This document shows positions 2,264 to 48,405 of a stretch of DNA of 64,000 nucleotides, piece after piece (positions within the stretch are counted from its first letter, which is position 1; each line of letters opens with the position of its first letter). The position numbers and the translations under genes are program-made. The notes below the pieces were generated by a model that saw only the letters and a program-made list of their open reading frames with translations, was not told where the DNA came from and searched no databases. Source of the DNA: Bacilli bacterium. GTDB taxonomy: Bacteria > Bacillota_I > Bacilli_A > RF39 > UBA660. The DNA is taken from NCBI GenBank assembly GCA_045125935.1, contig JBGVNW010000068.1, positions 55,323 through 119,322 of the forward strand, in the 5' to 3' direction.

Positions 2264-3763
2264 ATGAGTATTGCAGTATTAATTAGTGTTATTATTGGAG
2301 TTGTTCTCCTATTATGTGTAATCCTATCATCTTATGTAAAGGCTCCCCCTTCGGTAGCATTTCTAATCTCTGGTCTTTCAAAAGAACCAAGAGTTTTAAT
2401 TGGTAAAGGTGGATTTAGGATTCCTTTCTTTGAACGAATTGATAAAGTTTTTCTAGGTCAAATGTCTGTGGATATCAAGACCAGTGTTGCTGTACCCACA
2501 AAGGATTTTATTAATGTGAATGTGGATGCAGTAGCAAAAGTTAGAGTAGTTCCAAATCAAGAGGGAATCAGGTTGGCAGGGAAGAACTTCCTGAACATGA
2601 CTCAAACCGATATTCAACATCAATTGAAGGATTCTCTTGAAGGTAATATGCGTGAGATTATTGGAACGCTTGATCTTGTTTCTTTGAATACAGACCGAGA
2701 CTCATTCTCTGACCAAATTGCACAAAAGGCGGGAAAGGATATGAACAAGTTGGGCATTGAGATTCTTTCTTGTAACATTCAAAATGTAACAGATGAACAA
2801 AATCTAATCAAAGACCTTGGTGCAGATAATACATGGCGAATTAAAAAGGACGCTGCTGTCACAAAAGCACAATCTGAGAAGGAAATAGCTATTGCACAGG
2901 CAGAGGCGAACAAAGAGGCGAATGATGCACGAGTAACTTCAGAAACTGCTATCGCAGAGCGTAACAACGAACTCGAAATTAAACGAGCAGACTTGAAGAA
3001 AGAAGCAGATGTGAAAAAAGCTATGTCAGATGCCGCATATGCTATTCAAGAACAAGAACAACAAAAACTCATAAATGAGAGAACTGTCGAAGCACATATT
3101 GCCAGAACAAAAAAAGAACAAGAACTCACAGAAGAAATGATTAAGGTTCGTGAGAATAATCTTCAAGCAGAGATCGCAAAACAAGCTGATGCTGAACGAT
3201 ATAAGTTAGAGGTTGAAGCTGCTGCAGATAAAAAGAAAACAGAGTTGGATGCAGAAGCAGAACTTACATTGAGAAAGCGTCAAGCAGAAGCGGAAGCATA
3301 TGAAGCAGAACAAAAAGCAAAGGCAGTTAAAGCAGAAGCAGATGCTATCAAATATAAGATGTTAATGGAAGCAGAAGGTATCAAGGCAGTTGGTGAAGCA
3401 GAAGCTGCCAAAATCAAGGCAGTTGGTGAAGCAGAAGCGAAAGCTCTCGATGCAAAAGCGAAGGCATATAAGAATTACAATGACACAATCAAGTTGCAAG
3501 AAGCACTTGTGGAAGTGCTACCAGAAGTTGCAAAGAATGTTGCTGCACCTATCGCTGCTCTTAAAGATGTAACTTTATATGGTGGTGGAATGAGTCAGGT
3601 TTCGGAGAATGTTCCAGTTATGACACAAATGGTTTATGACACAATGTCTGCTGCAACAGGTGTGGACATGAAGGAAATTCTTAAAACAAAGACACTCACT
3701 GCACAAACAGATAGAAATGTTAATGTGAATGGTGCGGAAGATGTAATTATTACAACAAAATAA
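2264..3763 (+). CDS. flotillin-like SPFH/band-7 membrane protein (FloT/YuaG/YqiK family)
   Basis: N-terminal TM helix, then an SPFH core (GKGGFRIPFFERIDKV...VDAVAKVRV). This is followed by a long A/E/K-rich flotillin coiled coil (AEADAIKYKMLMEAEGIKAVGEAEAAK...) and a tail (VLPEVAKNVAAPIAALKDVTLYGGG). The whole layout is co-linear with B. subtilis FloT as I remember it. Confidence 0.85.
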   Translation: MSIAVLISVIIGVVLLLCVILSSYVKAPPSVAFLISGLSKEPRVLIGKGGFRIPFFERIDKVFLGQMSVDIKTSVAVPTKDFINVNVDAVAKVRVVPNQEGIRLAGKNFLNMTQTDIQHQLKDSLEGNMREIIGTLDLVSLNTDRDSFSDQIAQKAGKDMNKLGIEILSCNIQNVTDEQNLIKDLGADNTWRIKKDAAVTKAQSEKEIAIAQAEANKEANDARVTSETAIAERNNELEIKRADLKKEADVKKAMSDAAYAIQEQEQQKLINERTVEAHIARTKKEQELTEEMIKVRENNLQAEIAKQADAERYKLEVEAAADKKKTELDAEAELTLRKRQAEAEAYEAEQKAKAVKAEADAIKYKMLMEAEGIKAVGEAEAAKIKAVGEAEAKALDAKAKAYKNYNDTIKLQEALVEVLPEVAKNVAAPIAALKDVTLYGGGMSQVSENVPVMTQMVYDTMSAATGVDMKEILKTKTLTAQTDRNVNVNGAEDVIITTK

Positions 3764-11731: not shown

Positions 11732-13060
11732 ATGGCAGAATTATCAATTAAAGGACACCCAACCAGAGGAGAAGAAGTAATTAAACTTCTTGAAATGTTG
11801 GGTGGTAACAATAAATACAATTTTAGAGGCGATGAAGATGAATGGTTTGTACTTAACGGAAATATTCAACGCTCTGATAGATTGTTTGACGAAAAAGGTT
11901 TCACTCTTGAAGAATTTCTTAAAAAATATCCTTATAAAGTTGGAGATGAAGTAGAATATAAATCAATTGGTGATGCAAATCTAAAATCTAAAATTATATA
12001 CATGGAGTGGTGCAACGCATTAAATAAAGTTTTATACACGACCGAAGAATCTCATGTAATATCAACAGAAGATATAATAGAAACAAATCAACATCCAAAA
12101 ACTCAAGCAGAGGTAGATAAATACCTTCAAGAACATTCTGTTAAAAATGTAATGAGTGTAATTGATATTGAAACTTGTCTGGAAATAGATGGATTGAAAT
12201 TACCAGAAAATGTTGTTATTAATTCAAAAGGCATTGGTTCAATACAATTTACCGAATGGTATGAAAAATCGCAATATCCAAAGACTTATGATGAGTGTTG
12301 TGAAGTACTTGGATATACAGAAGCACTTGGATATGCAGTTGATGATATTATATTCATAAAAGACACAGGGTGGATAAGAATTACAAAAAAACTTTGGGAT
12401 TGTTATGCTGAAGAGCATGTGTATGAGGGTATTGATATTATAAATGGGCATGAATATAAAGATATTCGCCATCAAAATGTAACAGCAAAATTGCAATTGG
12501 GGCACTTAAAACATTGCAAAGATGTTGATGATGTAAGATATGTTAATAGTATTGCCGATGATATAATGATAAGCCAAATCACCAACAAAGTATCTGTAAT
12601 TAAATTTAAACCTGATGTTTGTGATAATGAAATAGAACTTCATCTTGGTGATTATGAGATTGAGGTTCGAGACGGTAAGACTTATGCAGTAAAGAAGAAA
12701 TCTAAATATCCAAAAACATATAAGGAGTGTTGTGATGTATTAGGTCTTAACACAATGGATAATGATGCTCAAGGATATAAAGCAGACTTGATAATTCGGT
12801 TTCAGGAATTAATTATCGCTCGTAATGCATATTGGAAGATAGCGGGTGAAGAACTTGGTTTAGATAAACCTTGGGAACCCGATTGGAAAGACAGTTCTCA
12901 ACAAAAGTTCACAATTTTTTATTACCAAGATGAAGTAAGTTTATCAAAAGGACCTAATGTTAATAGATTTTTATCCTTTCCAACTGAAGAAATGCGAGAC
13001 ATTTTTTATGAAAATTTTAAAAATTTAATTGAAAATTGTAAAAAAAATATTATAATATGA
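11732..13060 (+). CDS. 'MAQLAIKGH' paralog family (copy 2, expanded)
   Basis: MAELSIKGHPTRGEEVIKLLEMLGG..., with two internal YPKTY(D/K)ECC(E/D)VLG repeats and C-terminal AYWKIAGEELGLDKPWEPDW...LSFPTEEMRD. Confidence 0.7.
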   Translation: MAELSIKGHPTRGEEVIKLLEMLGGNNKYNFRGDEDEWFVLNGNIQRSDRLFDEKGFTLEEFLKKYPYKVGDEVEYKSIGDANLKSKIIYMEWCNALNKVLYTTEESHVISTEDIIETNQHPKTQAEVDKYLQEHSVKNVMSVIDIETCLEIDGLKLPENVVINSKGIGSIQFTEWYEKSQYPKTYDECCEVLGYTEALGYAVDDIIFIKDTGWIRITKKLWDCYAEEHVYEGIDIINGHEYKDIRHQNVTAKLQLGHLKHCKDVDDVRYVNSIADDIMISQITNKVSVIKFKPDVCDNEIELHLGDYEIEVRDGKTYAVKKKSKYPKTYKECCDVLGLNTMDNDAQGYKADLIIRFQELIIARNAYWKIAGEELGLDKPWEPDWKDSSQQKFTIFYYQDEVSLSKGPNVNRFLSFPTEEMRDIFYENFKNLIENCKKNIII

Positions 13061-18989: not shown

Positions 18990-19024
18990 TTATGATAACA
19001 ATTTTATATAAAACTTGGTAAGAT

Positions 19025-19294
19025 ATGGTAATAGCAATGATAGTATTCGGGCTATTGTATGGAATAGCCTTCTTTTGGAATCTTTCAACGGACGATAGCA
19101 ATAGTAAAGCATCTTCCGTGTGTCTTTCAACAGTATCAGCAATTATATTCTTTGCATTATTTTCAACATACGAAAGTAGAAATACACCCACAGCGAAATC
19201 TGTTTACGAAGGAAAAACAACACTTGAAATAACCTACAAAGATAGTATTCCTGTTGATACAGTTGTAGTTTTTAAAGACGAATTTAAAAAATAA
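19025..19294 (+). CDS. small membrane protein, paralog of 5099..5350
   Basis: See 5099..5350. Its stop codon lies inside the perfect palindrome at 19288. Confidence 0.65.
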   Translation: MVIAMIVFGLLYGIAFFWNLSTDDSNSKASSVCLSTVSAIIFFALFSTYESRNTPTAKSVYEGKTTLEITYKDSIPVDTVVVFKDEFKK

Positions 19295-19307
19295 TAATTA
19301 TTATTTT
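19288..19307. repeat. perfect 20-bp A/T palindrome bridging a stop and a start codon
   Basis: AAAATAATAATTATTATTTT. It contains the TAA of 19025..19294 and abuts the ATG at 19308. There is no promoter in between. Confidence 0.95.
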
Positions 19308-19538
19308 ATGAAAGTTTTAATCGCAGTAATATTAATAGTTCTTATTTTCTCATCGTTTATCATTTACGCTGTTTATAATGACTATAAAGATTTCAACAAA
19401 GGTGTTTGCCCTCGTTGTGGAAAGAAATTACACCTATTTGATATTGATAGTCAAGGTGGTAAACGATATTGTTGTCACAAATGTCCAAATTTCACTTGGA
19501 TTAGTTATGATTATGTAGATAAAAATTATAAAGGATAA
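19308..19538 (+). CDS. membrane-anchored zinc-ribbon protein (76 aa)
   Basis: N-terminal TM segment, then CPRCG...CCHKC. Confidence 0.6.
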   Translation: MKVLIAVILIVLIFSSFIIYAVYNDYKDFNKGVCPRCGKKLHLFDIDSQGGKRYCCHKCPNFTWISYDYVDKNYKG

Positions 19539-19544
19539 AGAACG

Positions 19545-19859
19545 ATGGATAGAATAGATAAAGTTAATAAAATTATCGTATGTGAATGTGGCGATGTCGC
19601 ACATCAATTAGTGCTTTCTTGGTTTAAACAACAAACTCCAATGGATTATGATTCAGATGAATATGTTTATTTATCTGTACATTTGAATAAACTACCTTTC
19701 TGGAAAAGACTAAAAGTTGCTATCCAATATTTGTTTGGAAAGCAATCAAAATATGGTGCTTTTGATGAGGTAATAATTGATTCTTCGGAATATAAAAAGT
19801 TTCAAGATATGGTTGATTTCATGAAAGATGTGGAGTTATATAAAATGACAAAAGAATAA
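19545..19859 (+). CDS. hypothetical protein (104 aa)
   Basis: ORF track. Confidence 0.6.
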   Translation: MDRIDKVNKIIVCECGDVAHQLVLSWFKQQTPMDYDSDEYVYLSVHLNKLPFWKRLKVAIQYLFGKQSKYGAFDEVIIDSSEYKKFQDMVDFMKDVELYKMTKE

Positions 19860-19951
19860 TGGTGAGATTTAGAGTTGTAATTCTTGACGAATCGGATAGA
19901 ATACAAGAAGTAATATATGAATCGAAAGAATATAAAGACCGATGGGAATAA
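19859..19951 (+). CDS. very small ORF (30 aa)
   Basis: My own translation: MVRFRVVILDESDRIQEVIYESKEYKDRWE*. TAATG overlap with the upstream stop. Confidence 0.3.
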   Translation: MVRFRVVILDESDRIQEVIYESKEYKDRWE

Positions 19952-20034
19952 ATCAGTAATTAAGAAAAGTATTAAAAAATATTAAAATATATACAAAAAT
20001 ATTCAATTTTTTTTATTTTTAAAGATATTTATAT

Positions 20035-20265
20035 ATGAAAGGAAACATAAATAATAAAAAGATTATTGAAAATATGGAACAGAAAAATATAAAAGTTGTT
20101 TCTATTGATGTAGACAATATGCTTTATATGTGTGATGATGGAAATGAATATCCATTAATGGATGGACTTGAAAATCTATCTGTAGAAGAACTTCAAGAGC
20201 ATATTAATAAAGCAAGATTAACTACAATAAACATATTGAAAGAAATGGAAATTGATAATGGATAG
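20035..20265 (+). CDS. hypothetical protein (76 aa)
   Basis: ORF track. Its upstream spacer lacks both the palindrome and a consensus promoter. Confidence 0.5.
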   Translation: MKGNINNKKIIENMEQKNIKVVSIDVDNMLYMCDDGNEYPLMDGLENLSVEELQEHINKARLTTINILKEMEIDNG

Positions 20266-20551
20266 ATTATTAACTATTAAAGAAACAGGAAAACTTCTTA
20301 ATGTAAGCAAACAAACACTTCAACGATGGGATAATAGTGGTAAACTAATAGCTATTAGAACAGAAGGTGGGCATAGAAGATATAAATTATCTGATATTGA
20401 AAAAATAATTAATATGAAAGATAAACAACAAGAAATATTAAATAAGGTGGAAGACTATCTTAGAGAAACATATATATCCGCAATAGGAGAAAAAGATTAT
20501 TCAATTGATGATATGATTGAACATTTTAGAAATTATTTTAATATAAAATAA
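20258..20551 (+). CDS. MerR/excisionase-type HTH protein resembling the N-terminal DNA-binding domain of IS607 TnpA, without the serine-recombinase domain
   Basis: MDRLLTIKETGKLLNVSKQTLQRWDNSGKLIAIRTEGGHRRYKLSDIEKI matches the IS607 TnpA N-terminus (..TLRRWDKEGKL..RTPGGHRRY..). No YARVSS-type catalytic block follows. It sits directly upstream of a tnpB-like gene. Confidence 0.7.
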   Translation: MDRLLTIKETGKLLNVSKQTLQRWDNSGKLIAIRTEGGHRRYKLSDIEKIINMKDKQQEILNKVEDYLRETYISAIGEKDYSIDDMIEHFRNYFNIK

Positions 20552-20560
20552 ACTTTAATT

Positions 20561-21373
20561 ATGATAATACAGAGTAAGTACACAAAAATATTTAAATCGT
20601 ATAATATGACTCGTTTAAAATATAATGAGTTATATGACTTCGCTGTGCTTATTCGTAATCATAAGAATACAGTTTCTGAATATGTTAATCAAAACCTTCT
20701 ACATTTCTTAGAATATAGCAAATTTACTTTCCTTAAAGAAATGAGAGAACACTTTAAGGGTTGTGTTCCAAGTTCATTTGATGCTCAATTATACACACAA
20801 ATATTTGATTGTTATCAAAATAAATTTGATGCAATACAGAAACGATTGAAATTTGAACATATAACATATTTTGGTTGTGAATTATATAAACGAACAACAA
20901 AGAAACATAAGAAAGGTGATTTCAAGAAAGTAATAACTGATAAGAAACAAACACCATTATCTAATTGTTTAACATATCTTGTTCGTTACGGTAATGAAAA
21001 TACTATTGAGTATATAACAAAACAGTTAGAAGCTTGTGATGATAAAAAACGAGATTTCTATAACAATATTTTACGATGTGTTGATAAATTTGGTTTTGAT
21101 AGACTACTAATTCTTGCAACACAGAAACGAAATAGAGTTATATCAAGATATTCAGAGAAACCAATAGAGTTTAAGTCGTTATCGTTTAGTGGTAGATGTA
21201 GAAAAACAAAGATTATTGGTTATAATTCGAAATTTGGTTCAGTTATAAACTCATTTATTAGTTTATCTGGATTAGGAAGAAAATCATTTGATATACCTGT
21301 TAAATTTAATAAGGATTGGCATGGTAATATTAAAAACTATTATAAAAAAATCCCGATTATGAATATACATTAA
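20561..21373 (+). CDS. tnpB: TnpB/Cas12-like nuclease, N-terminal segment (before the frameshift)
   Basis: ORF track. Contiguous with 21469..22197 if a -1 shift occurs in the A7 run at 21344-21350 (...NYYKK|NPDYEYTLTFNEKE...). Confidence 0.7.
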   Translation: MIIQSKYTKIFKSYNMTRLKYNELYDFAVLIRNHKNTVSEYVNQNLLHFLEYSKFTFLKEMREHFKGCVPSSFDAQLYTQIFDCYQNKFDAIQKRLKFEHITYFGCELYKRTTKKHKKGDFKKVITDKKQTPLSNCLTYLVRYGNENTIEYITKQLEACDDKKRDFYNNILRCVDKFGFDRLLILATQKRNRVISRYSEKPIEFKSLSFSGRCRKTKIIGYNSKFGSVINSFISLSGLGRKSFDIPVKFNKDWHGNIKNYYKKIPIMNIH

Positions 21374-21468
21374 CATTCAATGAAAAAGAACATCAGGTTA
21401 ATATACATTTATGTGCTGATGGTGAACGATATATACCACAAGCAGGTAACAACATAGTAGGTATAGAT

Positions 21469-22197
21469 GTGAATTGTAAACATAACTTATTTGCTTTATC
21501 TAATGAAACAACATATGATTATGATAGAAAGTTAGTTAATGATTTCTGTAAATTATCATTAGAAATTGATAAACTTAAAAAGAATAAATCATATATAGTT
21601 GGTAAACGTAAACAATGGAAGTTAGATACGTTGAAACGTAAAATAATTCATTCAGAACAACAGATGATTGCATCAATGTGTAAGGAACTACATAATCAAG
21701 GTGTTAATCATATTGTGATGGAAGATTTGGATAATGGTTTTGGTAAATGTTATGTTAAAGATAGTGATAATGAAGATATAAACTATAATAGAAAGATTAA
21801 ATTTCTTGGATTATCATCATTGAAACAAGAAGTAGAACATATTGCGAGGAAATATGATATAGCTGTATCGACTGTACATAGTAGTTATACTAGTAAAATG
21901 TGTCCTATATGTGGATGTATTGAGGATGAGAATCGTCCAAATCAAGAAACCTTTGAATGCATTGAATGTGAATATAAAAGTAATGCAGATTTCAATGCCG
22001 CAAATAACATAAAAAACAGAGTGAGCATAACCGTGTTATGTAATTCACTCTTAAAACAATTGGATAATGGTGCTTATGAACCAAAGAAACTTAAAAGGGA
22101 AAAGGTAAAGGAAGTGCTATTATCGTTTCGAAGAAGCCTACGAAATGTAGGTAGTGAATGTATAGAATGTAGTTTGACTACATTTGACTATGTTTAA
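21469..22197 (+). CDS. tnpB: TnpB/Cas12-like nuclease, RuvC + zinc-finger segment (frame open from 21346)
   Basis: RuvC-I is in the open frame just upstream (NIVGIDVNCKHN). RuvC-II is HIVMEDLDN. The YTS motif and zinc finger read SSYTSKMCPICGC...FECIECEY. RuvC-III is NADFNAANNIKNR. Confidence 0.8.
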   Translation: MNCKHNLFALSNETTYDYDRKLVNDFCKLSLEIDKLKKNKSYIVGKRKQWKLDTLKRKIIHSEQQMIASMCKELHNQGVNHIVMEDLDNGFGKCYVKDSDNEDINYNRKIKFLGLSSLKQEVEHIARKYDIAVSTVHSSYTSKMCPICGCIEDENRPNQETFECIECEYKSNADFNAANNIKNRVSITVLCNSLLKQLDNGAYEPKKLKREKVKEVLLSFRRSLRNVGSECIECSLTTFDYV

Positions 22198-22378
22198 TTC
22201 TTCGGATCCAGAATGGAATAATGATTACTACCTTACATTGATAGATTTGAATAAAAAATATGATCTATCAGATTGGGAAAACGCACCCTATTTAGAAACT
22301 CAAATTTTAGAAGATGTAATTAATGAAGGAATATGGCACTTTCATTCAAGCGTAATAGAAGATTGGTTTAATTTATAA
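22184..22378 (+). CDS. hypothetical protein (64 aa)
   Basis: ORF track. Overlaps the tnpB 3' end by 14 nt. Confidence 0.45.
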   Translation: MTMFNSSDPEWNNDYYLTLIDLNKKYDLSDWENAPYLETQILEDVINEGIWHFHSSVIEDWFNL

Positions 22379-22391
22379 TAATTAAAAAAAT

Positions 22392-22775
22392 ATGGAAGAT
22401 TTTGTAAATTTTAAAATATCCCAGAAACTCAAAGAAAAGGGGTTTCCACAAAGTCCTGATTATTTTAACTACAGTAGTTATTATGATTGGGATGGTTTAA
22501 GAAAAATACACTCATTATCTAACGCAAGTGTGTGGTTTGATCCCAATATAAGTAGAGATAATATTTATTTTGCTCCCACCATTTCCCAAGTCTTGAAATG
22601 GTTAAGAAAGGAGAAGAAAATACATATATGTATTGATTTTGGCGGAGATATGAATTGGTACTATCAAATAGCAATTTATGGTTCAACAGATATTGCTGCT
22701 GATGGTTATGGATATAATGATTATGAAATATCTGCATTAGCAGGAATTGAATGTGTTTTAGATAATTTTATTTGA
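22392..22775 (+). CDS. hypothetical protein, paralog of 13311..13703
   Basis: Shared blocks: FKISQKLKEKGF, APTISQVLKWLRKEK, ALAGIE. Confidence 0.65.
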   Translation: MEDFVNFKISQKLKEKGFPQSPDYFNYSSYYDWDGLRKIHSLSNASVWFDPNISRDNIYFAPTISQVLKWLRKEKKIHICIDFGGDMNWYYQIAIYGSTDIAADGYGYNDYEISALAGIECVLDNFI

Positions 22776-22814
22776 TGACATTAGAAATATTAAAATTAAA
22801 AATTAAAAATAAAT

Positions 22815-23003
22815 ATGACACAAGAAGAATGGAAAAAAGAAGATCGTAAGCATAATATAAAATTAACTTTTCAAATTATATGCTTTATCATTCTGTTATG
22901 GATTAGCATAACATCAACAATTTGTGTATTCAAAAATCCTGAAATGACCGAAACACAATTGTTCTTACATATCCCTAAATCATTTATTTTAGATTTTAAT
23001 TAA
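22815..23003 (+). CDS. small membrane protein (62 aa)
   Basis: ORF track. One TM segment. Confidence 0.5.
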   Translation: MTQEEWKKEDRKHNIKLTFQIICFIILLWISITSTICVFKNPEMTETQLFLHIPKSFILDFN

Positions 23004-23005
23004 TT

Positions 23006-23257
23006 ATGTACAGAGACGAAACAGATTATGTAAAAAACATCAGGAACACCCATTGTAAAGGTTGTATGAATGAAGGTGATGATAACTTTCATTTTTGTGA
23101 TGGTAAATCCGTGATCAATTGCTATCTGCGAAAAACATATTTACCAGAAGGCGAATGGCAACAAACATCTATGAACGACATTCGGATAGCACATTGCAGA
23201 CAGATAACAGAATCTATAAATAAAAAAATATTAGAAAAGATAACAGTAAAGAAATAA
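23006..23257 (+). CDS. Cys-rich hypothetical protein (83 aa)
   Basis: ORF track. Confidence 0.55.
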   Translation: MYRDETDYVKNIRNTHCKGCMNEGDDNFHFCDGKSVINCYLRKTYLPEGEWQQTSMNDIRIAHCRQITESINKKILEKITVKK

Positions 23258-23260
23258 ATT

Positions 23261-23452
23261 ATGATTAAAACAGTTGATGATCTAATTAATGTTCTGACAG
23301 ATTGCAAAAATCGCTATCCAGAATTTGGCAAATATATTATTTGTGTAAATGCGTCTAATCCAGATGATATTATACCAACATTAAAAGAACCAATGCTATA
23401 TATAAACACAGATATTGGTCAGGTGGAAATATACACGGAAGACGATGACTAA
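23261..23452 (+). CDS. hypothetical protein (63 aa)
   Basis: ORF track. Confidence 0.5.
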   Translation: MIKTVDDLINVLTDCKNRYPEFGKYIICVNASNPDDIIPTLKEPMLYINTDIGQVEIYTEDDD

Positions 23453-23462
23453 AAAAAAATAT

Positions 23463-23533
23463 AAAATAATAATTATTATTTTAAAGAAACTATCAAAAAT
23501 ATTTGGTAGTTTCATTTTTTAATTGTATATTTG
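23463..23533 (+). promoter_or_regulatory. family-A cassette (copy 3 of 5)
   Basis: Perfect palindrome 23463-23482. Hairpin 23486-23513 plus T6. -33 TTTG 23502-05. -7 TATATTTG 23526-33 after an N20 spacer. Confidence 0.75.
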
Positions 23534-26089: not shown

Positions 26090-27682
26090 ATGAAAATTTT
26101 TAGAATCAAAAACAGACGAAATTCGCTAGCAACCAATTCGAGTTCAACACATTCGGTTGTTTATAAAAACAAAGATCAAGTATTTGAAGATTTGAATATC
26201 TTTGATAATAGATATTATGACCGACACACGGAAACTATCGCTGCTAGCCGTGAAGCAAAGATTCGCTATATCTTTGCGAATATCTTCCGTTGGAACGAAC
26301 TTGTCGAATTGATGTCAATGAGATATCCCGAAATGAAGGAATATTATCCTTTGGCAAAGGATTATTACGATATTTACTGTAATGATAAAAAATGGGAAGA
26401 ACTTCGCAAATCCAATGGTGATGAATATTGGGATTTGTGGGAGGAACGAGATAGTTATATGTTCGGAGACCACATGAGAGGTAATCTATATAACCATCAA
26501 GAACTTTATCTTTCTTATGAATTTCTTTGCAATATTATTGATAGTCCAGATATTGTCATTGTCGGTGGTAGCGACGAAGCAGACTTTGTATATGATACTA
26601 TCGATGGGTGTGATGAAATTTCAAGTAGTTTCTCATATATGAAAAATATTACCGAGAAAATAAAAAATGGTAATTACTATATATTGTATGGTAGCACATA
26701 TAACCAAAAGGAAAAGGTAAGATTGCAGGTGGATAGCATTCCAGATATGATACCAGAATATCCAGAACTTGTTGATATGAAAATCACAAATGCATGTGAA
26801 CATAACTGTCCGTTCTGCTATATGGCATCTACACCTAATGGCAAGCATTCAAATTTAAACGACATTTATGAAATTATATCTAAATTTAAAATTAAAACAG
26901 AATTCGCATTGGGTGGCGGAAATGTGTTGCTACATCCTGATTTTGACAAAATTGTAAGATATATCAAAATTAATGAACATATCGCTAACATTACTATCCG
27001 ATATGACGATATTGATACTATTAATAACAATGAGACAATCAAGGATGCTATCGAGAAATATGTAAGTGGTATCGGTCTATCTGTTCAGAAAGCAAATGAT
27101 GTAGATGTTGCAACAGACTTCATTAATAAGATGCTCGATCTTGGAAAGCATGTGTCGCTTCATATCATCCCCGAAATGATTGGAGTTGACGAAACAATTG
27201 CTATCCTTACCAAAATGAATGATATTAACAAACAACGAGTTGCCAATAAGAATTACGATGATCCTTATGCGACAAATAGATGTAAAGTATTATTTCTTGG
27301 TTTGAAGCAATCGGGTAGAGCAAAAAATCTTGAACACAAGTTGCTGTCAGAAGAAAATTTAGATTTATTCGCACAAACATCTGGTTATCAATTTAATGTA
27401 GATACTGCATTTATTAACACATACGAAACGTGGTTCGCAGAAACTTTCAATGGTGATGATGAGTTTTTCTTAACAAAACATGAAGGCGAGTATTCTATGT
27501 TTATTGATGCTGTCAAGATGCAAGCATATACATCATCATATAAAGATGATGGTGGTATTGACCTATACAAATATGATAGCGAATACGACTATGTTAAGGA
27601 TATTAATGAAGTGTTCGGAGAGATTCGTAAAAAGAATGGATTTAAAGTTTTTGAAAAACCTGAACCTTATTATAGAAAATAA
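26090..27682 (+). CDS. radical-SAM domain protein with an N-terminal extension of about 230 aa of unknown type
   Basis: ITNACEHNCPFCYM gives the CxxxCxxC 4Fe-4S/SAM cluster motif. The downstream GGGNVLLHPDF resembles the GGEPLL SAM-binding motif. I do not recognise the N-terminal region. Confidence 0.75.
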   Translation: MKIFRIKNRRNSLATNSSSTHSVVYKNKDQVFEDLNIFDNRYYDRHTETIAASREAKIRYIFANIFRWNELVELMSMRYPEMKEYYPLAKDYYDIYCNDKKWEELRKSNGDEYWDLWEERDSYMFGDHMRGNLYNHQELYLSYEFLCNIIDSPDIVIVGGSDEADFVYDTIDGCDEISSSFSYMKNITEKIKNGNYYILYGSTYNQKEKVRLQVDSIPDMIPEYPELVDMKITNACEHNCPFCYMASTPNGKHSNLNDIYEIISKFKIKTEFALGGGNVLLHPDFDKIVRYIKINEHIANITIRYDDIDTINNNETIKDAIEKYVSGIGLSVQKANDVDVATDFINKMLDLGKHVSLHIIPEMIGVDETIAILTKMNDINKQRVANKNYDDPYATNRCKVLFLGLKQSGRAKNLEHKLLSEENLDLFAQTSGYQFNVDTAFINTYETWFAETFNGDDEFFLTKHEGEYSMFIDAVKMQAYTSSYKDDGGIDLYKYDSEYDYVKDINEVFGEIRKKNGFKVFEKPEPYYRK

Positions 27683-30970: not shown

Positions 30971-31660
30971 ATGAGTAAGAAAAAAACTAAAGATGAAATA
31001 ACACTTGAGAATTATAAGAATCATGTTGGTGAATGGGTTTGTAGCATCTGTGCATCGGGAAGTAGTCAACCAGCAAAAAATATACAAAATTTAAGAGGGT
31101 TGGGATATGCTTTCAAAGAAACATCAACAGGTAGATATGCAAAGCAGTGTTTTTGTGAAAAATGTGGATGTAATCGAACACATTATATGTTGCTTTCAGC
31201 AGAACCAACATTTGATGAAAAAACAAGATGTATAATCACTCCTGAACAAAGAGAACGAATAATACCTTTATTTGAAAGCAGAGATGCTTTTACTGGTGCA
31301 AAAATTACTACAAGAGCAGAAATTGATCATAAAAAACCATTTGCCAGATTGGAACAAGATATAGATGTTTCGCTTCTTTCTGATGAAGAAATAAAAAAAC
31401 ATTTTCAACTTTTAACACGAGACCATAATCTATTAAAGGATAGAAAATGCCAACAATGTATTAAAACTAATAAGAGACCTTCTTTCTTAGGTAAAAAATA
31501 TTGGTATGCTGGTGATGAAAAATTCACGGGAGATTGTGAAGGATGTGGATATTACGATGGTGTGAAATGGACAGAAGAATTTAATAAAGAGGAAGTAAGA
31601 GAAATAGCACGAAAAAACTTAATATCATATCTATATAAATATATCGACAGCAATAAATAA
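30971..31660 (+). CDS. zinc-ribbon protein with a possible His-Me (HNH-like) finger; tandem paralog 1
   Basis: CSICASG...CEKCGC, then EIDHKKP...QLLTRDHNLLKDRKCQQC...CEGCGYYDG. Co-linear with 31691..32419. Confidence 0.55.
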   Translation: MSKKKTKDEITLENYKNHVGEWVCSICASGSSQPAKNIQNLRGLGYAFKETSTGRYAKQCFCEKCGCNRTHYMLLSAEPTFDEKTRCIITPEQRERIIPLFESRDAFTGAKITTRAEIDHKKPFARLEQDIDVSLLSDEEIKKHFQLLTRDHNLLKDRKCQQCIKTNKRPSFLGKKYWYAGDEKFTGDCEGCGYYDGVKWTEEFNKEEVREIARKNLISYLYKYIDSNK

Positions 31661-31690: not shown

Positions 31691-32419
31691 ATGGATAAAA
31701 AAAGTCAAGTAGATTCGGCACTTAATATGTGCATTAATAACCTCAACGAATGGGTGTGCAGTTCTTGTGCAACTGACAATTGCGATCAACCAGCAGCAGT
31801 TTTCAAGTTGTTGCGAAATAAAGGATATAAATTTGAGGAAACAGCAAGTGGTAAATTTAGTAAGAAAATATTTTGCCCAATATGTGGTAAAACACAAACA
31901 CATTACAAATTGCTATCAGACGATCCAAATTTTGACGAAAATGATAATAATAATGCAATTCCACAAAGACAATATATTAGAATTCAAAATATTCTGGACA
32001 ATGTAGAAGCATATAATTTGTGGAAAGCATCATCTAAACCACAGGTAGATAAAAAAACACCTGTGTCAAGAGAGAAGGATGTAGAAGATATTTCAACATT
32101 ATCTAATGAAGAAATTAAAAATCGCTATCAACTTTTAACACAAGAACATGTTGCGTTAAAAAATAAGGCGTGCAACCACTGCATGAAATACGGCATCAGA
32201 CCTCCTTTTATGGGAAAGAAATTCTACTATGCTGGAGATGATATTTACAGAGGAACTTGTGAAGGTTGTGGTTGGCACGATGGAGCAAAATGGACAGCAG
32301 AACTTAACAAATTACTTGAGGATTACTATCGCCTTAAGGAACTTGAAGATGAATACACAAAAGAGAAGAATAATTATATCAATTATATCAAATATCTTAC
32401 AAGTTTTAAAAAAGAGTAA
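31691..32419 (+). CDS. tandem paralog 2 of 30971..31660, with the DH/HN positions substituted
   Basis: CSSCATD...CPICGK, then VDKKTP...QLLTQEHVALKNKACNHC...CEGCGWHDG. Confidence 0.55.
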   Translation: MDKKSQVDSALNMCINNLNEWVCSSCATDNCDQPAAVFKLLRNKGYKFEETASGKFSKKIFCPICGKTQTHYKLLSDDPNFDENDNNNAIPQRQYIRIQNILDNVEAYNLWKASSKPQVDKKTPVSREKDVEDISTLSNEEIKNRYQLLTQEHVALKNKACNHCMKYGIRPPFMGKKFYYAGDDIYRGTCEGCGWHDGAKWTAELNKLLEDYYRLKELEDEYTKEKNNYINYIKYLTSFKKE

Positions 32420-44923: not shown

Positions 44924-45007
44924 GCAGGAATGTTGTAATAGGTAGCCAAGAGGCACTTAAAATGCCTTGACCATTTGGTCGTGCGGGTTCGAGTCCCGCT
45001 TCCTGTA
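44924..45007 (+). tRNA. tRNA-Leu(UAA), uninterrupted
   Basis: GCAGGAA-TG-TTG..CAA-G-AGGCA-CTTAAAA-TGCCT, then the long variable arm TGACCATTTGGTCGT, then GCGGG-TTCGAGT-CCCGC-TTCCTGT-A. Class II cloverleaf of 84 nt. Confidence 0.85.
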
Positions 45008-45030
45008 CAAAAAAATTAAATAAACTATAT

Positions 45031-46767: not shown

Positions 46768-48405
46768 ATGAAATCAACAGACAAACTTAATCTTTTTGGC
46801 GAACCGCTATCAGATGAAATTGAAAGAAATGTGGTGAAAAACAAGACATTATCTTTTAAAAAGAAATACAAGGCAACCCAAGACTATCACTATATGCCGA
46901 TTAAGAATATGAAACATCGGAAAGCAACCAAACAGTTTTTATCTGAAATGCTTGGACTTCAGACAGCAGGTTGGACAACTGACCAGATTTTGTATGCTAT
47001 CGGACGGGAATTGACAGCAGGTAAGCAATTACCAGACTTTCATCTGAAATCCAAAAGCAATTTGAAGATATCTATACCAGATGATGTTCGAGAAGAGCAT
47101 GATCTAATTGGTGGTTGCTATCAATATTTGAGCACAAAACACGAGAGACTCAAAAAAGGATCCTTTTATACTACAGAAAGAATTATTGAAAGAATCGTTA
47201 TTGGTCTTGATATTGATGGAGACACTTCTGTATTTGATCCATCTTGTGGGAGTGGGAATCTAATATTGAACAGTAAGGTTATTAACCCAAAACAAGTACA
47301 TGGCATTGATATTGATCCACTGGCAGTGATGTGCTGTCAGTTCAATTACTATCTGAAATTTGGGAACGACGCACCTGAACCTGATATCAGATGTATGAAC
47401 TTCTCGGATCTGGTGAAACAGGGATGTGATCTGAAATTTGATGTAATCCTGTGCAATCCACCGTATGGGGCGGAGATGAATATATCTGGAGTGAATTCTG
47501 AAATCAGAAGCACTGACTGTTTGGATTTCTTCGTAGAGCATGCGAGCAAGATGGCGGCGGAGTCTGTCTTCGTGCTACCAGAAACTGTAATCAATGTAAA
47601 GAAGCACGAGAACTTGAGATCTTGGATTCTACAGAAAAAGAAATTGTCTGCAATTCAAAGCTTTGGGGCTGGAATTGATAGCACATTATATAATATAGTA
47701 TCATTGACCTTAAATCATAAAGAAAAAAATAATTATTTTTTTGATGGAAAGCAGGTAGATTATGATTTTACCATCAATGTGTTGGACAGCAAATTTCGTC
47801 CGATCGGAGGAGATGAGATGGAATTCATTCGAAAGATGTATGCTATACCTCATCAGACATTAGAGAAGTGTAAACATGTAACGGGAATAGTAACTGGGGA
47901 TGATGAGAAGTTTTTATTAGATGAACCGACAGCAAGTTCTGAACCAGTGATTACTGGGAAGCACATAGAACCATATAAGATCACAGGAGAGAAATATATT
48001 AATTACGAAGATGTTCGTGGGCAGTTGGCGATCGCTGTCAAGGACTCATATTTCCGAACACCAGAAAAACTCATTTATCATACAGTATCCAGAAATTTAG
48101 AGTTTGCTATCGACACTGACAGCAGGCTTACTACCTGCACTGCGAATTTCTTTTTGGTGAAAGATATCAGGGTGAGTACTAAATGTATTATGGCGATGTT
48201 TAACTCTCGGATATATAATCGCATCAACGAGTTACTCTTCGGTGACAAAGTGAATCGTGGAGGCAATATTAAAAAATTACCTATCCCGATTCTGGATGAA
48301 GACCAGCAGCGGCGGATGGAGAAATATGTGGATGATGAGAATTACGCAGCGATTGAAGAGATGCTCGCTGATTTCTTTCAGATTTATGATAGCAAAATAA
48401 AATAA
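46768..48405 (+). CDS. gamma-class N6-adenine DNA methyltransferase (Eco57I/TaqI-like), apparently orphan
   Basis: Motif I is SVFDPSCGSGNLIL. Motif IV is DVILCNPPYG. There is a large C-terminal TRD-like region. No endonuclease partner is nearby. Confidence 0.85.
   Translation: MKSTDKLNLFGEPLSDEIERNVVKNKTLSFKKKYKATQDYHYMPIKNMKHRKATKQFLSEMLGLQTAGWTTDQILYAIGRELTAGKQLPDFHLKSKSNLKISIPDDVREEHDLIGGCYQYLSTKHERLKKGSFYTTERIIERIVIGLDIDGDTSVFDPSCGSGNLILNSKVINPKQVHGIDIDPLAVMCCQFNYYLKFGNDAPEPDIRCMNFSDLVKQGCDLKFDVILCNPPYGAEMNISGVNSEIRSTDCLDFFVEHASKMAAESVFVLPETVINVKKHENLRSWILQKKKLSAIQSFGAGIDSTLYNIVSLTLNHKEKNNYFFDGKQVDYDFTINVLDSKFRPIGGDEMEFIRKMYAIPHQTLEKCKHVTGIVTGDDEKFLLDEPTASSEPVITGKHIEPYKITGEKYINYEDVRGQLAIAVKDSYFRTPEKLIYHTVSRNLEFAIDTDSRLTTCTANFFLVKDIRVSTKCIMAMFNSRIYNRINELLFGDKVNRGGNIKKLPIPILDEDQQRRMEKYVDDENYAAIEEMLADFFQIYDSKIK

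What the first reader, a model, noticed from the sequence alone, without database searches (positions are those of the whole stretch)
20035..22378. IS607-like module: HTH-only TnpA remnant plus a TnpB-like nuclease that needs a -1 shift at an A7 run
The 98-aa HTH protein matches only the MerR-like DNA-binding head of IS607 TnpA (TLQRWDNSGKLIAIRTEGGHRRY). It has no serine-recombinase domain.

The adjacent gene has all the TnpB catalytic blocks: GIDVN, MEDLDN, YTSKMCPICGC...CIECEY and NADFNAANNI.

That reading frame breaks exactly at TAT-TAT-AAAAAAA-TCC (21344-21350). A -1 slip yields ...NYYKKNPDYEYTLTFNEKE... and a protein of roughly 545 aa.

A-runs are classic slippery sites in IS1 and IS3 elements. 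The break could therefore be programmed frameshifting or transcriptional slippage, a recent inactivation, or a homopolymer sequencing error.

The spacer upstream of 20035 is one of the few that lack the palindrome/promoter punctuation, which is consistent with an insertion.
Basis: partly seen in the sequence, partly recalled or inferred. Interest (0 to 1): 0.7.

Follow-up and report, generated by a model that had tools for sequence, protein, structure and literature searches.

The report
Decayed IS607 transposon in a phage
This is a broken copy of a known type of mobile element (IS607, with an RNA-guided nuclease, TnpB) that has inserted into a small phage gene; the reading-frame break is a one-base deletion specific to this lineage, not a conserved frameshifting signal.

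Summary
A 97-aa MerR-type HTH gene (20258-20551) is followed by a TnpB gene split at an A7 run (21344-21350). Adding one A restores a 545-aa protein.

The module is a 2,259-bp IS607-family insertion (19947-22205) inside an 86-aa phage gene. Related phage contigs carry that gene intact. The junctions are typical of IS607: a 5'-TGGG target, a right end reading ...TTCTTCGG, and no terminal inverted repeats or target duplication. A roughly 190-nt covarying guide-RNA scaffold overlaps the 3' end of tnpB.

Sibling copies carry a full serine-recombinase TnpA in the same position, so the HTH protein is a truncated TnpA head.

Programmed frameshifting is not supported:
- More than 120 relatives are uninterrupted 530-565-aa ORFs.
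- At this site they read AAG AAG AAT or AAG AAA AAT.
- There is no downstream stimulatory structure.
- Other copies show scattered one-base deletions in A tracts.

The A7 recurs at 100% identity in contigs assembled separately from two sequencing runs. It is the only homopolymer in the window that splits a gene, so it is probably a real allele.

Some leaky -1 slippage on T_AAA_AAA cannot be excluded.

Verdict: a non-autonomous, decaying member of a known kind.

The parts
19862..19946 (+). 5' fragment (28 codons) of an 86-aa phage gene split by the insertion. The element supplies its stop codon (GAA TAA, to 19951).
   Evidence: Joining 19862-19946 to 22206-22378 gives an 86-aa protein. It has intact 86-aa homologues at 90-95% identity (P0121-P0127) in syntenic contigs L069, L071 and L072.
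19943..19946 (+). TGGG: the target motif of the serine transposase and the presumed TAM of TnpB.
   Evidence: The empty site reads CGATGGG|ATCCAG. TGGG abuts the left end at 12 of 14 distinct insertion sites. It matches the 5'-TGGG-3' target and TAM measured for the IS607-family CboIStron (PMC10690162).
19947..22205 (+). The inserted IS607-family element, 2,259 bp.
   Evidence: Homology to copies in unrelated flanks begins at about 19943 and ends at 22206/7 in every locus. The boundaries were fixed by comparison with the empty site.
19947..20034 (+). Left-end non-coding region. It is conserved among copies and presumably holds the promoter and transposase-binding sites.
   Evidence: Alignment of 17 left ends. 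The role is inferred.
20035..20265 (+). 76-aa ORF of unknown function, carried inside the element.
   Evidence: Present in 18 fetched loci (including duplicates) at 52-93% aa identity, always just upstream of the position where TnpA or its remnant lies. No Pfam, PHROG or NCBIfam match.
20258..20551 (+). Truncated TnpA: a MerR/HTH_17 DNA-binding head (about residues 1-52) fused to an unrelated 45-aa tail. There is no serine-recombinase domain.
   Evidence: Head dN/dS is 0.06-0.16. The tail has no detectable similarity to the catalytic domain.
20561..21373 (+). tnpB 5' part: 262 authentic codons, then 8 out-of-frame codons and a stop.
   Evidence: It is collinear with residues 1-262 of intact 545-aa relatives.
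21344..21350 (+). A7 run, the site of the one-base deletion. The nearest relatives read AAG AAA AAT here.
21346..22197 (+). tnpB 3' part in the -1 frame: RuvC D303/E388/D477 (numbering of the repaired protein), a CxxC...CxxC zinc finger and the TNB domain.
   Evidence: Solved structures of Cas12f and TnpB match residues ~276-500 (E down to 1e-10).
22018..22205 (+). Guide-RNA (omega-RNA) scaffold. It overlaps the last ~60 codons of tnpB and ends in ...UUCUUCGG exactly at the right end.
   Evidence: Synonymous diversity falls over the last 70 codons. The consensus fold has 52 pairs, 14 of them with compensatory changes. 98.7% of cells are paired, against 39-50% when partners are slid. The window copy folds at -55 kcal/mol, z = -5.9.
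22206..22225 (+). Presumed guide segment (ATCCAGAATGGAATAATGAT). It is identical to the sequence that follows TGGG in the empty site of L072.
   Evidence: The guide length is inferred from other TnpB systems.
22206..22378 (+). 3' fragment of the split 86-aa phage gene. The listed ORF 22184-22378 borrows a TTG/ATG start from the element's right end.

Best explanation
The locus is a non-autonomous, decaying copy of an IS607-family insertion sequence. This lineage is common in large AT-rich phage contigs (up to about 370 kb) from gut and other metagenomes.

**How it got here (inferred from the family's known mechanism).** A serine-recombinase TnpA, supplied by a complete copy, inserted the element 3' of a TGGG motif inside an 86-aa phage gene. 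The crossover was at a GG core, which leaves no target duplication.

**How intact copies work (inferred).**
- tnpB and a ~190-nt scaffold RNA that overlaps its 3' end are transcribed through the right end.
- This yields a guide that matches the flank.
- The TnpB-RNA complex should then cut TGGG-flanked empty sites, for example in co-infecting phages that lack the element.
- Recombinational repair would copy the element into the cut site.

**What has been lost in this copy (shown).**
- TnpA has lost its catalytic domain. Only the DNA-binding head remains, fused to an unrelated tail.
- tnpB carries a one-base deletion in a Lys-Lys-Asn tract (AAG AAA AAT became AAAAAAAT).

The deletion is a real allele of this phage strain. 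It is recent, because the downstream frame and the scaffold RNA are still intact. It is not a conserved recoding signal. At most it permits incidental low-level -1 slippage.
For: **Family and mechanism.**
- Sibling copies carry a full IS607 TnpA. It scores 189.7 bits against the NCBIfam cut-off of 110. It matches IS607-family catalytic-domain structures with E values of 1e-15 to 1e-29.
- An empty site and precise junctions were found, with no target duplication and no terminal inverted repeats.
- TGGG lies at 12 of 14 left junctions. ...TTCTTCGG ends nearly all of the ~47 distinct right ends compared. This matches the measured TGGG target and TAM and the ...UCGG scaffold end of an IS607 element (PMC10690162).
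- The scaffold RNA covaries.
- The element sits in many unrelated flanks and twice in single contigs.

**Frame break.**
- 120 listed relatives at 78-93% identity are single ORFs of 485-565 aa, nearly all 530-565 aa.
- 35 distinct full-length intact genes were recovered from the fetched loci.
- At the site they read AAG AAG AAT, AAG AAA AAT, AAG AAT AAT and similar. Only one relative has an in-frame A8.
- Contig L067 lost one A in the same tract independently, and L058 lost one base in another A tract.
- Many truncated N-terminal fragments of varied length occur in the protein collection, some on long contigs.
- No downstream structure follows the run (z = 0.55 and -0.74).

**Real allele rather than error.**
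- Contigs assembled separately from runs SRR25030072 and SRR25030050 are 100% identical to the window, including the A7.
- Of 296 homopolymer runs in the window, including A8 to A11 runs, only this one splits a gene.

**Recent event.** Changes private to the window lineage are 18 synonymous against 9 non-synonymous.
Against: - The register T_AAA_AAA resembles C_AAA_AAA, which gave 25-60% -1 frameshifting in E. coli expression constructs (PMC1851650). An appreciable amount of full-length TnpB might therefore still be made.
- The purifying-selection signature on the window branch fits continued function as well as it fits a recent break.
- The head of the HTH protein is under strong constraint (dN/dS 0.06-0.16), and its tail stays open right up to tnpB. 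It may be a working protein rather than a mere remnant.
- I could not inspect reads or learn the sequencing platform.
- No nuclease, guide-RNA or transposition activity has been measured for this lineage.
Confidence: 0.75

Rival explanations
1. **Leaky or selected recoding.** The one-base deletion is real. Ribosomal -1 slippage on T_AAA_AAA, or RNA-polymerase slippage on A7, still yields useful amounts of full-length TnpB alongside a 270-aa N-terminal product. The copy would then remain an active homing module, possibly with the ratio acting as a throttle as in IS1 and IS3.
For: - The corrected product is exactly the ancestral sequence.
- C_AAA_AAA in the same register frameshifts at 25-60% in E. 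coli (PMC1851650).
- The downstream ORF, the catalytic residues and the scaffold RNA are all intact.
- The window branch shows 18 synonymous against 9 non-synonymous changes.
- A second copy (L067) needs the same -1 correction at the same codons.
Against: - The run is absent from more than 150 intact relatives, so it is not an ancestral or conserved signal.
- It is not a canonical X_XXY_YYZ heptamer.
- There is no downstream hairpin or pseudoknot.
- L067 has only A5.
- TnpA is also degraded in this copy.
- The host and its tRNA-Lys are unknown.
Confidence: 0.17
2. **Sequencing or assembly artefact.** The true genome has A8 (or AAGAAAAAT) and tnpB is intact.
For: - Homopolymers are the commonest site of indel errors.
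- An in-frame A8 allele exists in a relative (L021/L055).
- All contigs with A7 come from neighbouring run accessions, so they may share one platform.
Against: - The same A7 appears in contigs assembled separately from at least two runs, with 100% identity over 11.8 kb.
- None of the other 295 homopolymer runs in the window breaks a gene. These include 9 A8, 8 A9, 4 A10 and 2 A11 runs.
Confidence: 0.07
3. **Domesticated regulator.** The HTH-only protein is a domesticated regulator and the N-terminal TnpB fragment a domesticated RNA- or DNA-binding protein. Both would have been retained by the phage for a function unrelated to transposition.
For: - The HTH head is under strong purifying selection.
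- Small proteins made of this head plus various tails form many separate clusters in the 1.8-billion-protein library.
- TnpB-derived repressors (TldR) are known in phages (PMC10705468, listed).
Against: - The tails are unrelated to one another. Some are fragments of other genes (RecX-like, Helicase_C, a cut resolvase), which looks like repeated accidental fusion.
- The RuvC residues are intact, unlike in TldR.
- The 270-aa fragment is seen only in this one strain.
- The element interrupts a phage gene, and related phages carry that gene intact with no element at this site.
Confidence: 0.05

Closest known systems
IS607-family elements with TnpB, as characterised for the Clostridium botulinum CboIStron (Zedaveinyte et al., PMC10690162) and IS607/IS1535 (PMC6188088)
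   Same: - Gene order is tnpA (MerR-HTH plus serine recombinase, seen in sibling copies) followed by tnpB.
- There are no terminal inverted repeats and no target duplication.
- A GG core lies at both junctions.
- The target and TAM are 5'-TGGG-3'.
- The guide-RNA scaffold overlaps the 3' end of tnpB and ends in ...UCGG at the right end. The TCGG there is expected to protect the occupied site from self-cleavage.
   Different: - There is no group I intron at the left end (88 nt only, no Rfam hit).
- An extra conserved 76-aa ORF precedes tnpA.
- TnpB is 545 aa rather than about 400. Its first ~270 residues match no Pfam family or solved structure by sequence.
- The host replicons are large phage genomes.
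- This particular copy lacks the recombinase domain and has a frameshifted tnpB.
IS607 TnpBs guided by RAGATH-18-derived RNAs (Cell Res 2024, PMC11061315)
   Same: An IS607-linked TnpB with a structured guide RNA encoded at the 3' end of the gene.
   Different: No RAGATH-18 match, or any other relevant Rfam match, at E <= 1 across 19500-22900. The NCBIfam IS607_TnpB model scores 35.6 bits against a cut-off of 350. This is a different TnpB and guide-RNA lineage.
Programmed -1 frameshifting or transcriptional slippage in IS1 and IS3 transposases (PMC1088944, PMC5009743)
   Same: An A-run lies at the overlap of two frames in a mobile-element gene, and a -1 shift joins two halves into one protein.
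   Different: In IS1 and IS3 the motif is conserved across the family, is usually followed by a structure, and separates two functional domains that are also made separately. Here the motif is private to one strain, relatives have one continuous ORF, and no structure follows.
Fanzor2 / eukaryotic IS607-like elements of giant viruses (PMC3627910)
   Same: An IS607-type element carrying a TnpB-family nuclease in a large dsDNA virus genome.
   Different: Bacterial-type gene organisation with translation by table 11. The relationship to Fanzor2 was not tested. No solved Fanzor structure appeared among the sequence matches.
Free-standing homing endonucleases of T4-like phages (Seg, Mob), and the 'transposon non-restorative homing' discussed for OMEGA systems (PMC13565253)
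   Same: The expected biology of intact copies is to cut the element-free allele in a co-infecting phage and be copied in by repair.
   Different: Target recognition would be by guide RNA plus TAM rather than by protein. This is inferred, not shown, and the window copy is probably disabled.

Membership tests
IS607 family insertion sequence | TnpA is a serine recombinase with an N-terminal MerR-like HTH | tested here: not met
   The window protein has only the HTH head. It matches NCBIfam transpos_IS607 positions 2-61 of 187 at 36 bits against a cut-off of 110. The feature is met in sibling copies of the same element (L008: 189.7 bits, plus hits to IS607 catalytic-domain structures). The window copy is therefore a derivative, not an autonomous member.
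IS607 family insertion sequence | No terminal inverted repeats and no target-site duplication | tested here: met
   The empty site reads CGATGGG|ATCCAG. The occupied junctions read CGATGGG|AATAAA... and ...TTCTTCGG|ATCCAG. No left-end/right-end inverted repeat was found.
IS607 family insertion sequence | GG core dinucleotide at both junctions, with a G-rich (TGGG) target | tested here: met
   GG lies at 19945-19946 and at 22204-22205. TGGG is present at 12 of 14 distinct left junctions, and the right end reads ...TCGG in nearly all distinct copies. The literature values are in PMC10690162 and PMC13565253.
IS607 family insertion sequence | Mobility: the same unit occurs in unrelated genomic contexts | tested here: met
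   Homology to 40 or more loci stops at the same two boundaries while the flanks differ. Single contigs carry two copies.
TnpB (RNA-guided nuclease of IS200/IS605 and IS607) | RuvC D-E-D triad plus zinc finger/TNB domain | tested here: met
   D303, E388 and D477 and the CxxC...CxxC motif are present and invariant in the family. Pfam PF07282 scores 55 bits against a cut-off of 26. Cas12f and TnpB structures match residues ~276-500.
TnpB (RNA-guided nuclease of IS200/IS605 and IS607) | Passes the curated whole-protein family threshold | tested here: not met
   For the intact relative P0001, NCBIfam guided_TnpB scores 87.6 bits against a cut-off of 100, and IS607_TnpB scores 35.6 against 350. It is a divergent lineage with a long, unmatched N-terminal half.
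TnpB (RNA-guided nuclease of IS200/IS605 and IS607) | A structured guide RNA overlaps the 3' end of the gene and ends at the transposon's right end | tested here: met
   52 consensus pairs, 14 with compensatory changes. 98.7% of cells are paired, against 39-50% in slid controls, and 0 of 500 shuffles reach the observed values. Synonymous diversity drops over this stretch.
TnpB (RNA-guided nuclease of IS200/IS605 and IS607) | One intact reading frame, and RNA-guided DNA cleavage | tested here: not met
   The frame is broken at 21344-21350 in the window. Cleavage activity cannot be tested with these tools.
Programmed -1 frameshift or slippage site (IS1/IS3 type) | The slippery motif is conserved among homologues that share the two-frame layout | tested here: not met
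   Relatives have one frame and G-interrupted codons at the site.
Programmed -1 frameshift or slippage site (IS1/IS3 type) | Canonical X_XXY_YYZ heptamer in the zero frame | tested here: not met
   The zero frame reads TAT AAA AAA ATC, which gives T_AAA_AAA. This is non-canonical, though the similar C_AAA_AAA is active in E. coli (PMC1851650).
Programmed -1 frameshift or slippage site (IS1/IS3 type) | A stimulatory RNA structure lies downstream | tested here: not met
   Folds of 21351-21420 and 21351-21450 are no more stable than shuffled sequences (z = 0.55 and -0.74).
IStron (IS607 or IS605 element fused to a group I intron) | A group I intron at the left end allows splicing out of the interrupted gene | tested here: not met
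   The left-end non-coding region is 88 nt. There is no intron match in Rfam at E <= 1.
TldR (nuclease-dead TnpB-derived repressors) | Loss of RuvC catalytic residues or truncation of the nuclease C-terminus | tested here: not met
   All three catalytic residues and the zinc finger are retained in the -1 frame.

The most novel reading that the evidence does not exclude
Despite lacking a transposase domain, this copy may still be a working selfish module. Incidental -1 slippage on T_AAA_AAA would supply low levels of full-length TnpB. The intact scaffold RNA would guide it to the TGGG-ATCCAGAATGG... empty allele in co-infecting jumbo phages. The element would then spread by homing alone. The conserved HTH head and the 76-aa protein would act as its regulators. 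The homopolymer would then work as an on/off (phase-variable) throttle of an RNA-guided homing nuclease in a phage.
Probability: 0.1. Interest if true: 0.55.

Novelty: new member of a known kind. Interest (0 to 1): 0.3.

Why it matters
**For the genome scan.** This settles a flagged 'possible recoding site' as an ordinary, lineage-specific one-base deletion in a decaying mobile element. It also corrects the annotation of four ORFs. Two are halves of one tnpB. Two others (the 30-codon ORF at 19862-19951 and the ORF at 22184-22378) are halves of a split 86-aa phage gene.

**For mobile-element biology.** The wider family is of modest interest.
- It is an abundant IS607 lineage resident in very large phage genomes.
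- Its TnpB is unusually long (545 aa) and falls below curated family thresholds.
- Its guide-RNA scaffold matches no Rfam family.
- It carries an extra conserved 76-aa gene.
- Its TGGG target and ...UCGG right end match the experimentally defined IS607 rules.

Intact siblings would be natural candidates for testing RNA-guided homing between co-infecting phages, and for tests as compact nucleases.

Tried and rejected
- Megablast of 19000-23500 against GenBank phages found no match.
- tblastn of TnpB against the same set found only distant TnpBs below 35% identity.
- tblastn of a 442-aa neighbouring gene found no match, so the phage could not be named.
- Rfam at a permissive threshold over the element found nothing relevant.
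- The repeat search found no end-to-end inverted repeats, only AT-rich chance matches.
- The sigma-70 promoter and terminator scan found fewer sites than in shuffles and was uninformative.
- AlphaFold2 on the intact relative P0001 with 35 close homologues gave mean pLDDT 52.8 and pTM 0.41. The Foldseek search on that model gave Cas12f and TnpB at TM 0.11-0.16 only. That adds nothing beyond sequence similarity and is not used as evidence.
- I looked for remains of the recombinase domain in the HTH tails and for similarity among the tails. There was none.
- I looked for a second copy, another scaffold RNA or a serine recombinase in the window. There was none.
- Other homopolymer 'breaks' flagged by my scan (11724, 13040, 32408, 44253, 45109) lie at gene boundaries or between genes and are not split genes. 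32408 was checked directly. The others were judged from ORF coordinates.
- The 545-aa ORF at 46768-48405 is an N6-adenine methylase, not a second TnpB.
Full report
**1. The observation**

The window is 30% G+C. On the + strand between 20035 and 22378 lie five ORFs:
- a 76-aa ORF (20035-20265);
- an HTH ORF (ATG at 20258, stop at 20551, 97 aa);
- a 270-aa ORF (20561-21373);
- an ORF open from 21346 to 22197;
- a 64-aa ORF (22184-22378).

The A7 run is at 21344-21350. The -1 frame is closed by a TAA immediately before it (21343-21345), and the zero frame stops at 21371. The two frames therefore overlap for only 28 nt. Inserting one A gives a 545-aa protein with the junction NYYKKNPDYEYTLTFNEKE.

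Pfam finds Cas12f1-like_TNB in the C-terminal half and HTH_17/MerR in the HTH ORF. It finds nothing in the N-terminal 270 aa or the 76-aa ORF. PHROGs calls the C-terminal half a 'transposase' (phrog_506, 4.8e-26).

**2. The two halves are one gene, and relatives are unbroken**

A search with the repaired protein returned 1,940 hits. The best 120 are at 78-93% identity and are single ORFs of 485-565 aa, nearly all 530-565 aa. Many sit on contigs of 100-370 kb.

I fetched 68 loci from IMG/VR, JGI, ENA and Logan. At the position of the A7 run they read:
- TAC AAG AAG AAT in L001;
- TAC AAG AAA AAT in L002;
- TAT TAT AAG AAA AAT in L024 and L059, among the nearest relatives;
- TAC AGA AAG AAG/AAT AAT in most others.

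One relative has an in-frame A8 (L021/L055). The window sequence TAT TAT AAAAAAA TCC is therefore AAG AAA AAT minus one base.

Thirty-five distinct full-length genes in the loci are intact. Three lineages are frameshifted:
- the window strain;
- L067, where A6 became A5 at the very same codons, with the rest of the frame intact;
- L058, with a one-base loss in another A tract.

 A search with the N-terminal fragment also returned many truncated products of various lengths, some on contigs over 100 kb. Gene decay is thus common in this family, and A tracts are its weak points.

**3. Real allele or error?**

The exact 270-aa product is encoded on three contigs from Logan assemblies of SRR25030072 and SRR25030050. 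The two that were fetched are 100% identical to the window over 11.8 kb and 2 kb, including the A7.

I scanned all 296 homopolymer runs in the window, which include 62 A7, 9 A8, 8 A9, 4 A10 and 2 A11. Only 21344-21350 joins two long ORFs when corrected. The other flags lie at gene boundaries or between genes. A platform with systematic homopolymer errors would be expected to break other genes too. I could not see reads, so a residual chance of error remains, about 7% in my estimate.

**4. Programmed frameshift?**

The defining features are not met:
- the motif is not conserved (section 2);
- the zero-frame register is T_AAA_AAA, not X_XXY_YYZ;
- the 70-100 nt downstream fold no better than shuffles (z = 0.55 and -0.74).

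Two facts keep a leaky reading alive:
- C_AAA_AAA in the same register gave 25-60% -1 frameshifting in E. coli constructs (PMC1851650).
- The window lineage's private substitutions are 18 synonymous against 9 mostly conservative non-synonymous changes. Either the break is recent or the protein is still made.

These cannot be separated without an experiment.

**5. What the module is**

Homology between the window and copies in unrelated flanks runs from about 19943 to 22206/7 in every case. The left junctions of 14 distinct insertions share only TGGG, in 12 of 14 cases, ahead of the conserved left end. About 47 distinct right ends read ...TTTGACTATGTT TAA TTCTTCGG and then diverge.

Joining the window's left flank (a 30-codon ORF at 19862-19951) to its right flank predicted an 86-aa protein. 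That protein exists intact at 90-95% identity (P0121-P0127). It lies in contigs with the same neighbours: a 104-aa gene upstream and a 127-aa gene downstream.

The empty site is CGATGGG|ATCCAG. The occupied junctions are CGATGGG|AATAAATC... and ...TTCTTCGG|ATCCAG. The insertion is 2,259 bp (19947-22205). It has a GG(A) core at both junctions, no duplication and no terminal inverted repeats. The ORF 22184-22378 is the 3' piece of the split gene, with a start codon borrowed from the element's end.

These properties match the IS607 family:
- Published work on IS607 reports a TGGG target for the serine transposase.
- It reports a TGGG TAM for TnpB.
- It reports a guide-RNA scaffold that ends in ...UCGG.
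- It notes that the TCGG at the right end spares the occupied site from cleavage (PMC10690162; see also PMC13565253).

**6. The HTH protein**

In L003, L005, L007, L008, L032, L033, L039, L041 and L046, among others, the gene between the 76-aa ORF and tnpB is a 206-216-aa protein. Its first ~50 residues are about 80% identical to the window protein. It continues into ...VATYARCSTxDQK....

The L008 protein passes NCBIfam 'IS607 family transposase' (189.7 against 110). It matches solved IS607-family catalytic domains (ISC1926, IS1535, ISC1904, MJ0014) at E values of 1e-15 to 1e-29. The window protein aligns to it at 63% identity over 72 residues and then stops.

Two observations go beyond 'remnant':
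- The head is under strong purifying selection, even between head-only copies (dN/dS 0.06-0.16).
- Immediately after ...SDIEKI the window, L001, L027 and L006/L019 have mutually unrelated tails that stay open almost to the tnpB start.

In the 1.84-billion-protein representative library the same head is fused to many other sequences:
- a RecX-like domain (P0268);
- a Helicase_C fragment (P0287);
- a cut resolvase domain (P0316).

The window's own tail recurs behind a different head (P0267). It also forms the C-terminal half of an 85-aa protein whose N-terminal half resembles the L027 tail (P0411).

The simplest reading is repeated deletion or illegitimate recombination just after the head. Whether the resulting small proteins do anything, for example bind the element ends, is open.

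**7. The guide RNA**

Across 36 distinct genes, normalised synonymous diversity falls from about 0.68 to about 0.45 over codons 475-532, and to 0.11 over the last 13 codons.

RNAalifold on 36 right ends predicts seven helices with 52 pairs, 14 of them showing compensatory changes. On the same alignment 98.7% of cells are paired, against 39-50% when partners are slid by 1-3 columns. No shuffle out of 500 reaches the observed values.

The terminal helix pairs UCGAAGAA with UUCUUCGG at the very end of the element. The window copy (22014-22205) folds into this structure at -55 kcal/mol, z = -5.9.

No Rfam family matches, RAGATH-18 included. The 20 nt after the right end are identical to the sequence after TGGG in the empty site of L072. 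A functional complex from this element would therefore have a natural target in related phages.

**8. Placement**

The TnpB is divergent. For an intact relative, NCBIfam guided_TnpB scores 87.6 against a cut-off of 100. Solved Cas12f and TnpB structures match only residues ~276-500. Structure prediction from the shallow alignment was poor (pLDDT 52.8).

There is no group I intron, so this is not an IStron. The catalytic residues are intact, so it is not a TldR. The window holds no second copy and no recombinase.

**9. Verdict**

This is a non-autonomous, decaying IS607-family element inside a small phage gene. The HTH-remnant reading and the insertion reading are right. The recoding reading is not supported as a programmed feature. 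The frame break is most likely a recent, genuine one-base deletion in an A-rich Lys-Lys-Asn tract.

Shown:
- the boundaries and the empty site;
- the relationship to full TnpA;
- the intact state of relatives;
- the covarying RNA;
- the reproducibility of the A7.

Inferred:
- the transposition and homing mechanism, by analogy with characterised IS607 elements;
- the guide length;
- the loss of function.

Noticed in passing
L011:3870-4003, L014:3084-3217, L015/L017/L018/L020:3870-4003, L025/L053/L062:2870-3003, L045:1653-1786: Copies that lack tnpA ('solo' tnpB) carry a conserved structured element of about 115 nt directly upstream of the tnpB start codon. It ends in a terminator-like AGAGG...CCTCTTTTTT hairpin. 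The helices covary (by eye; 16 pairs, 9 compensatory). There is no credible Rfam match (only a chance miRNA-model hit at E 0.11). It is absent from the window copy. It could be a leader or attenuator, or an alternative left end.
   Followed up: partly
window 20035-20265: A 76-aa ORF is a conserved passenger of this IS607 lineage. It is found in 18 fetched loci at 52-93% aa identity, always between the left end and tnpA. It has no match in Pfam, PHROGs or NCBIfam. Classical IS607 elements have only tnpA and tnpB.
   Followed up: partly
window 20258-20551; proteins P0267-P0316: The IS607 TnpA HTH head occurs fused to many unrelated C-terminal sequences: RecX-like, Helicase_C, a cut resolvase and several unknown tails. 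The break always falls just after ...SDIEKI. The window's tail recurs behind a different head (P0267) and in an 85-aa protein (P0411) whose other half resembles the L027 tail.
   Followed up: partly
window 22184-22205; L003:5628-5650: The conserved right end supplies an in-frame TTG/ATG start (MTMFNSS...) to whatever lies downstream. The 3' fragment of an interrupted gene could therefore still be translated. This is seen in the window and in L003.
   Followed up: no
L067:3780-3790 and L058:4440-4450: Two other copies carry one-base deletions in A tracts. L067 lost one A at the same Lys-Asn codons as the window (A6 became A5). L058 lost one base about 215 codons further on. L067 shares a 52-kb contig with an intact copy (L034).
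   Followed up: yes
window 19781-19789: TTCTTCGGA, identical to the last 9 nt of the right-end junction, occurs 160 bp upstream of the left end inside the neighbouring 104-aa gene. The 8-mer TTCTTCGG occurs 6 times in the window on both strands, so this is probably chance.
   Followed up: partly
window 30971-31660 and 31691-32419: Two adjacent paralogous genes of 229 and 242 aa carry Cys-rich motifs (…EWVCSxCA…CxxCG…CxxC…EGCGW/Y). They were not identified.
   Followed up: no
window 44924-45008; 46768-48405; 26090-27682; 2264-3763: A tRNA-Leu(TAA). An N6-adenine DNA methylase of 545 aa, the same length as TnpB by coincidence. A radical-SAM protein. An SPFH/flotillin-like protein. All six ORFs of 330 aa or more are on the + strand. 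Two tested stretches had no match in GenBank phages: 19000-23500 as DNA and the 442-aa ORF at 11732-13060.
   Followed up: no
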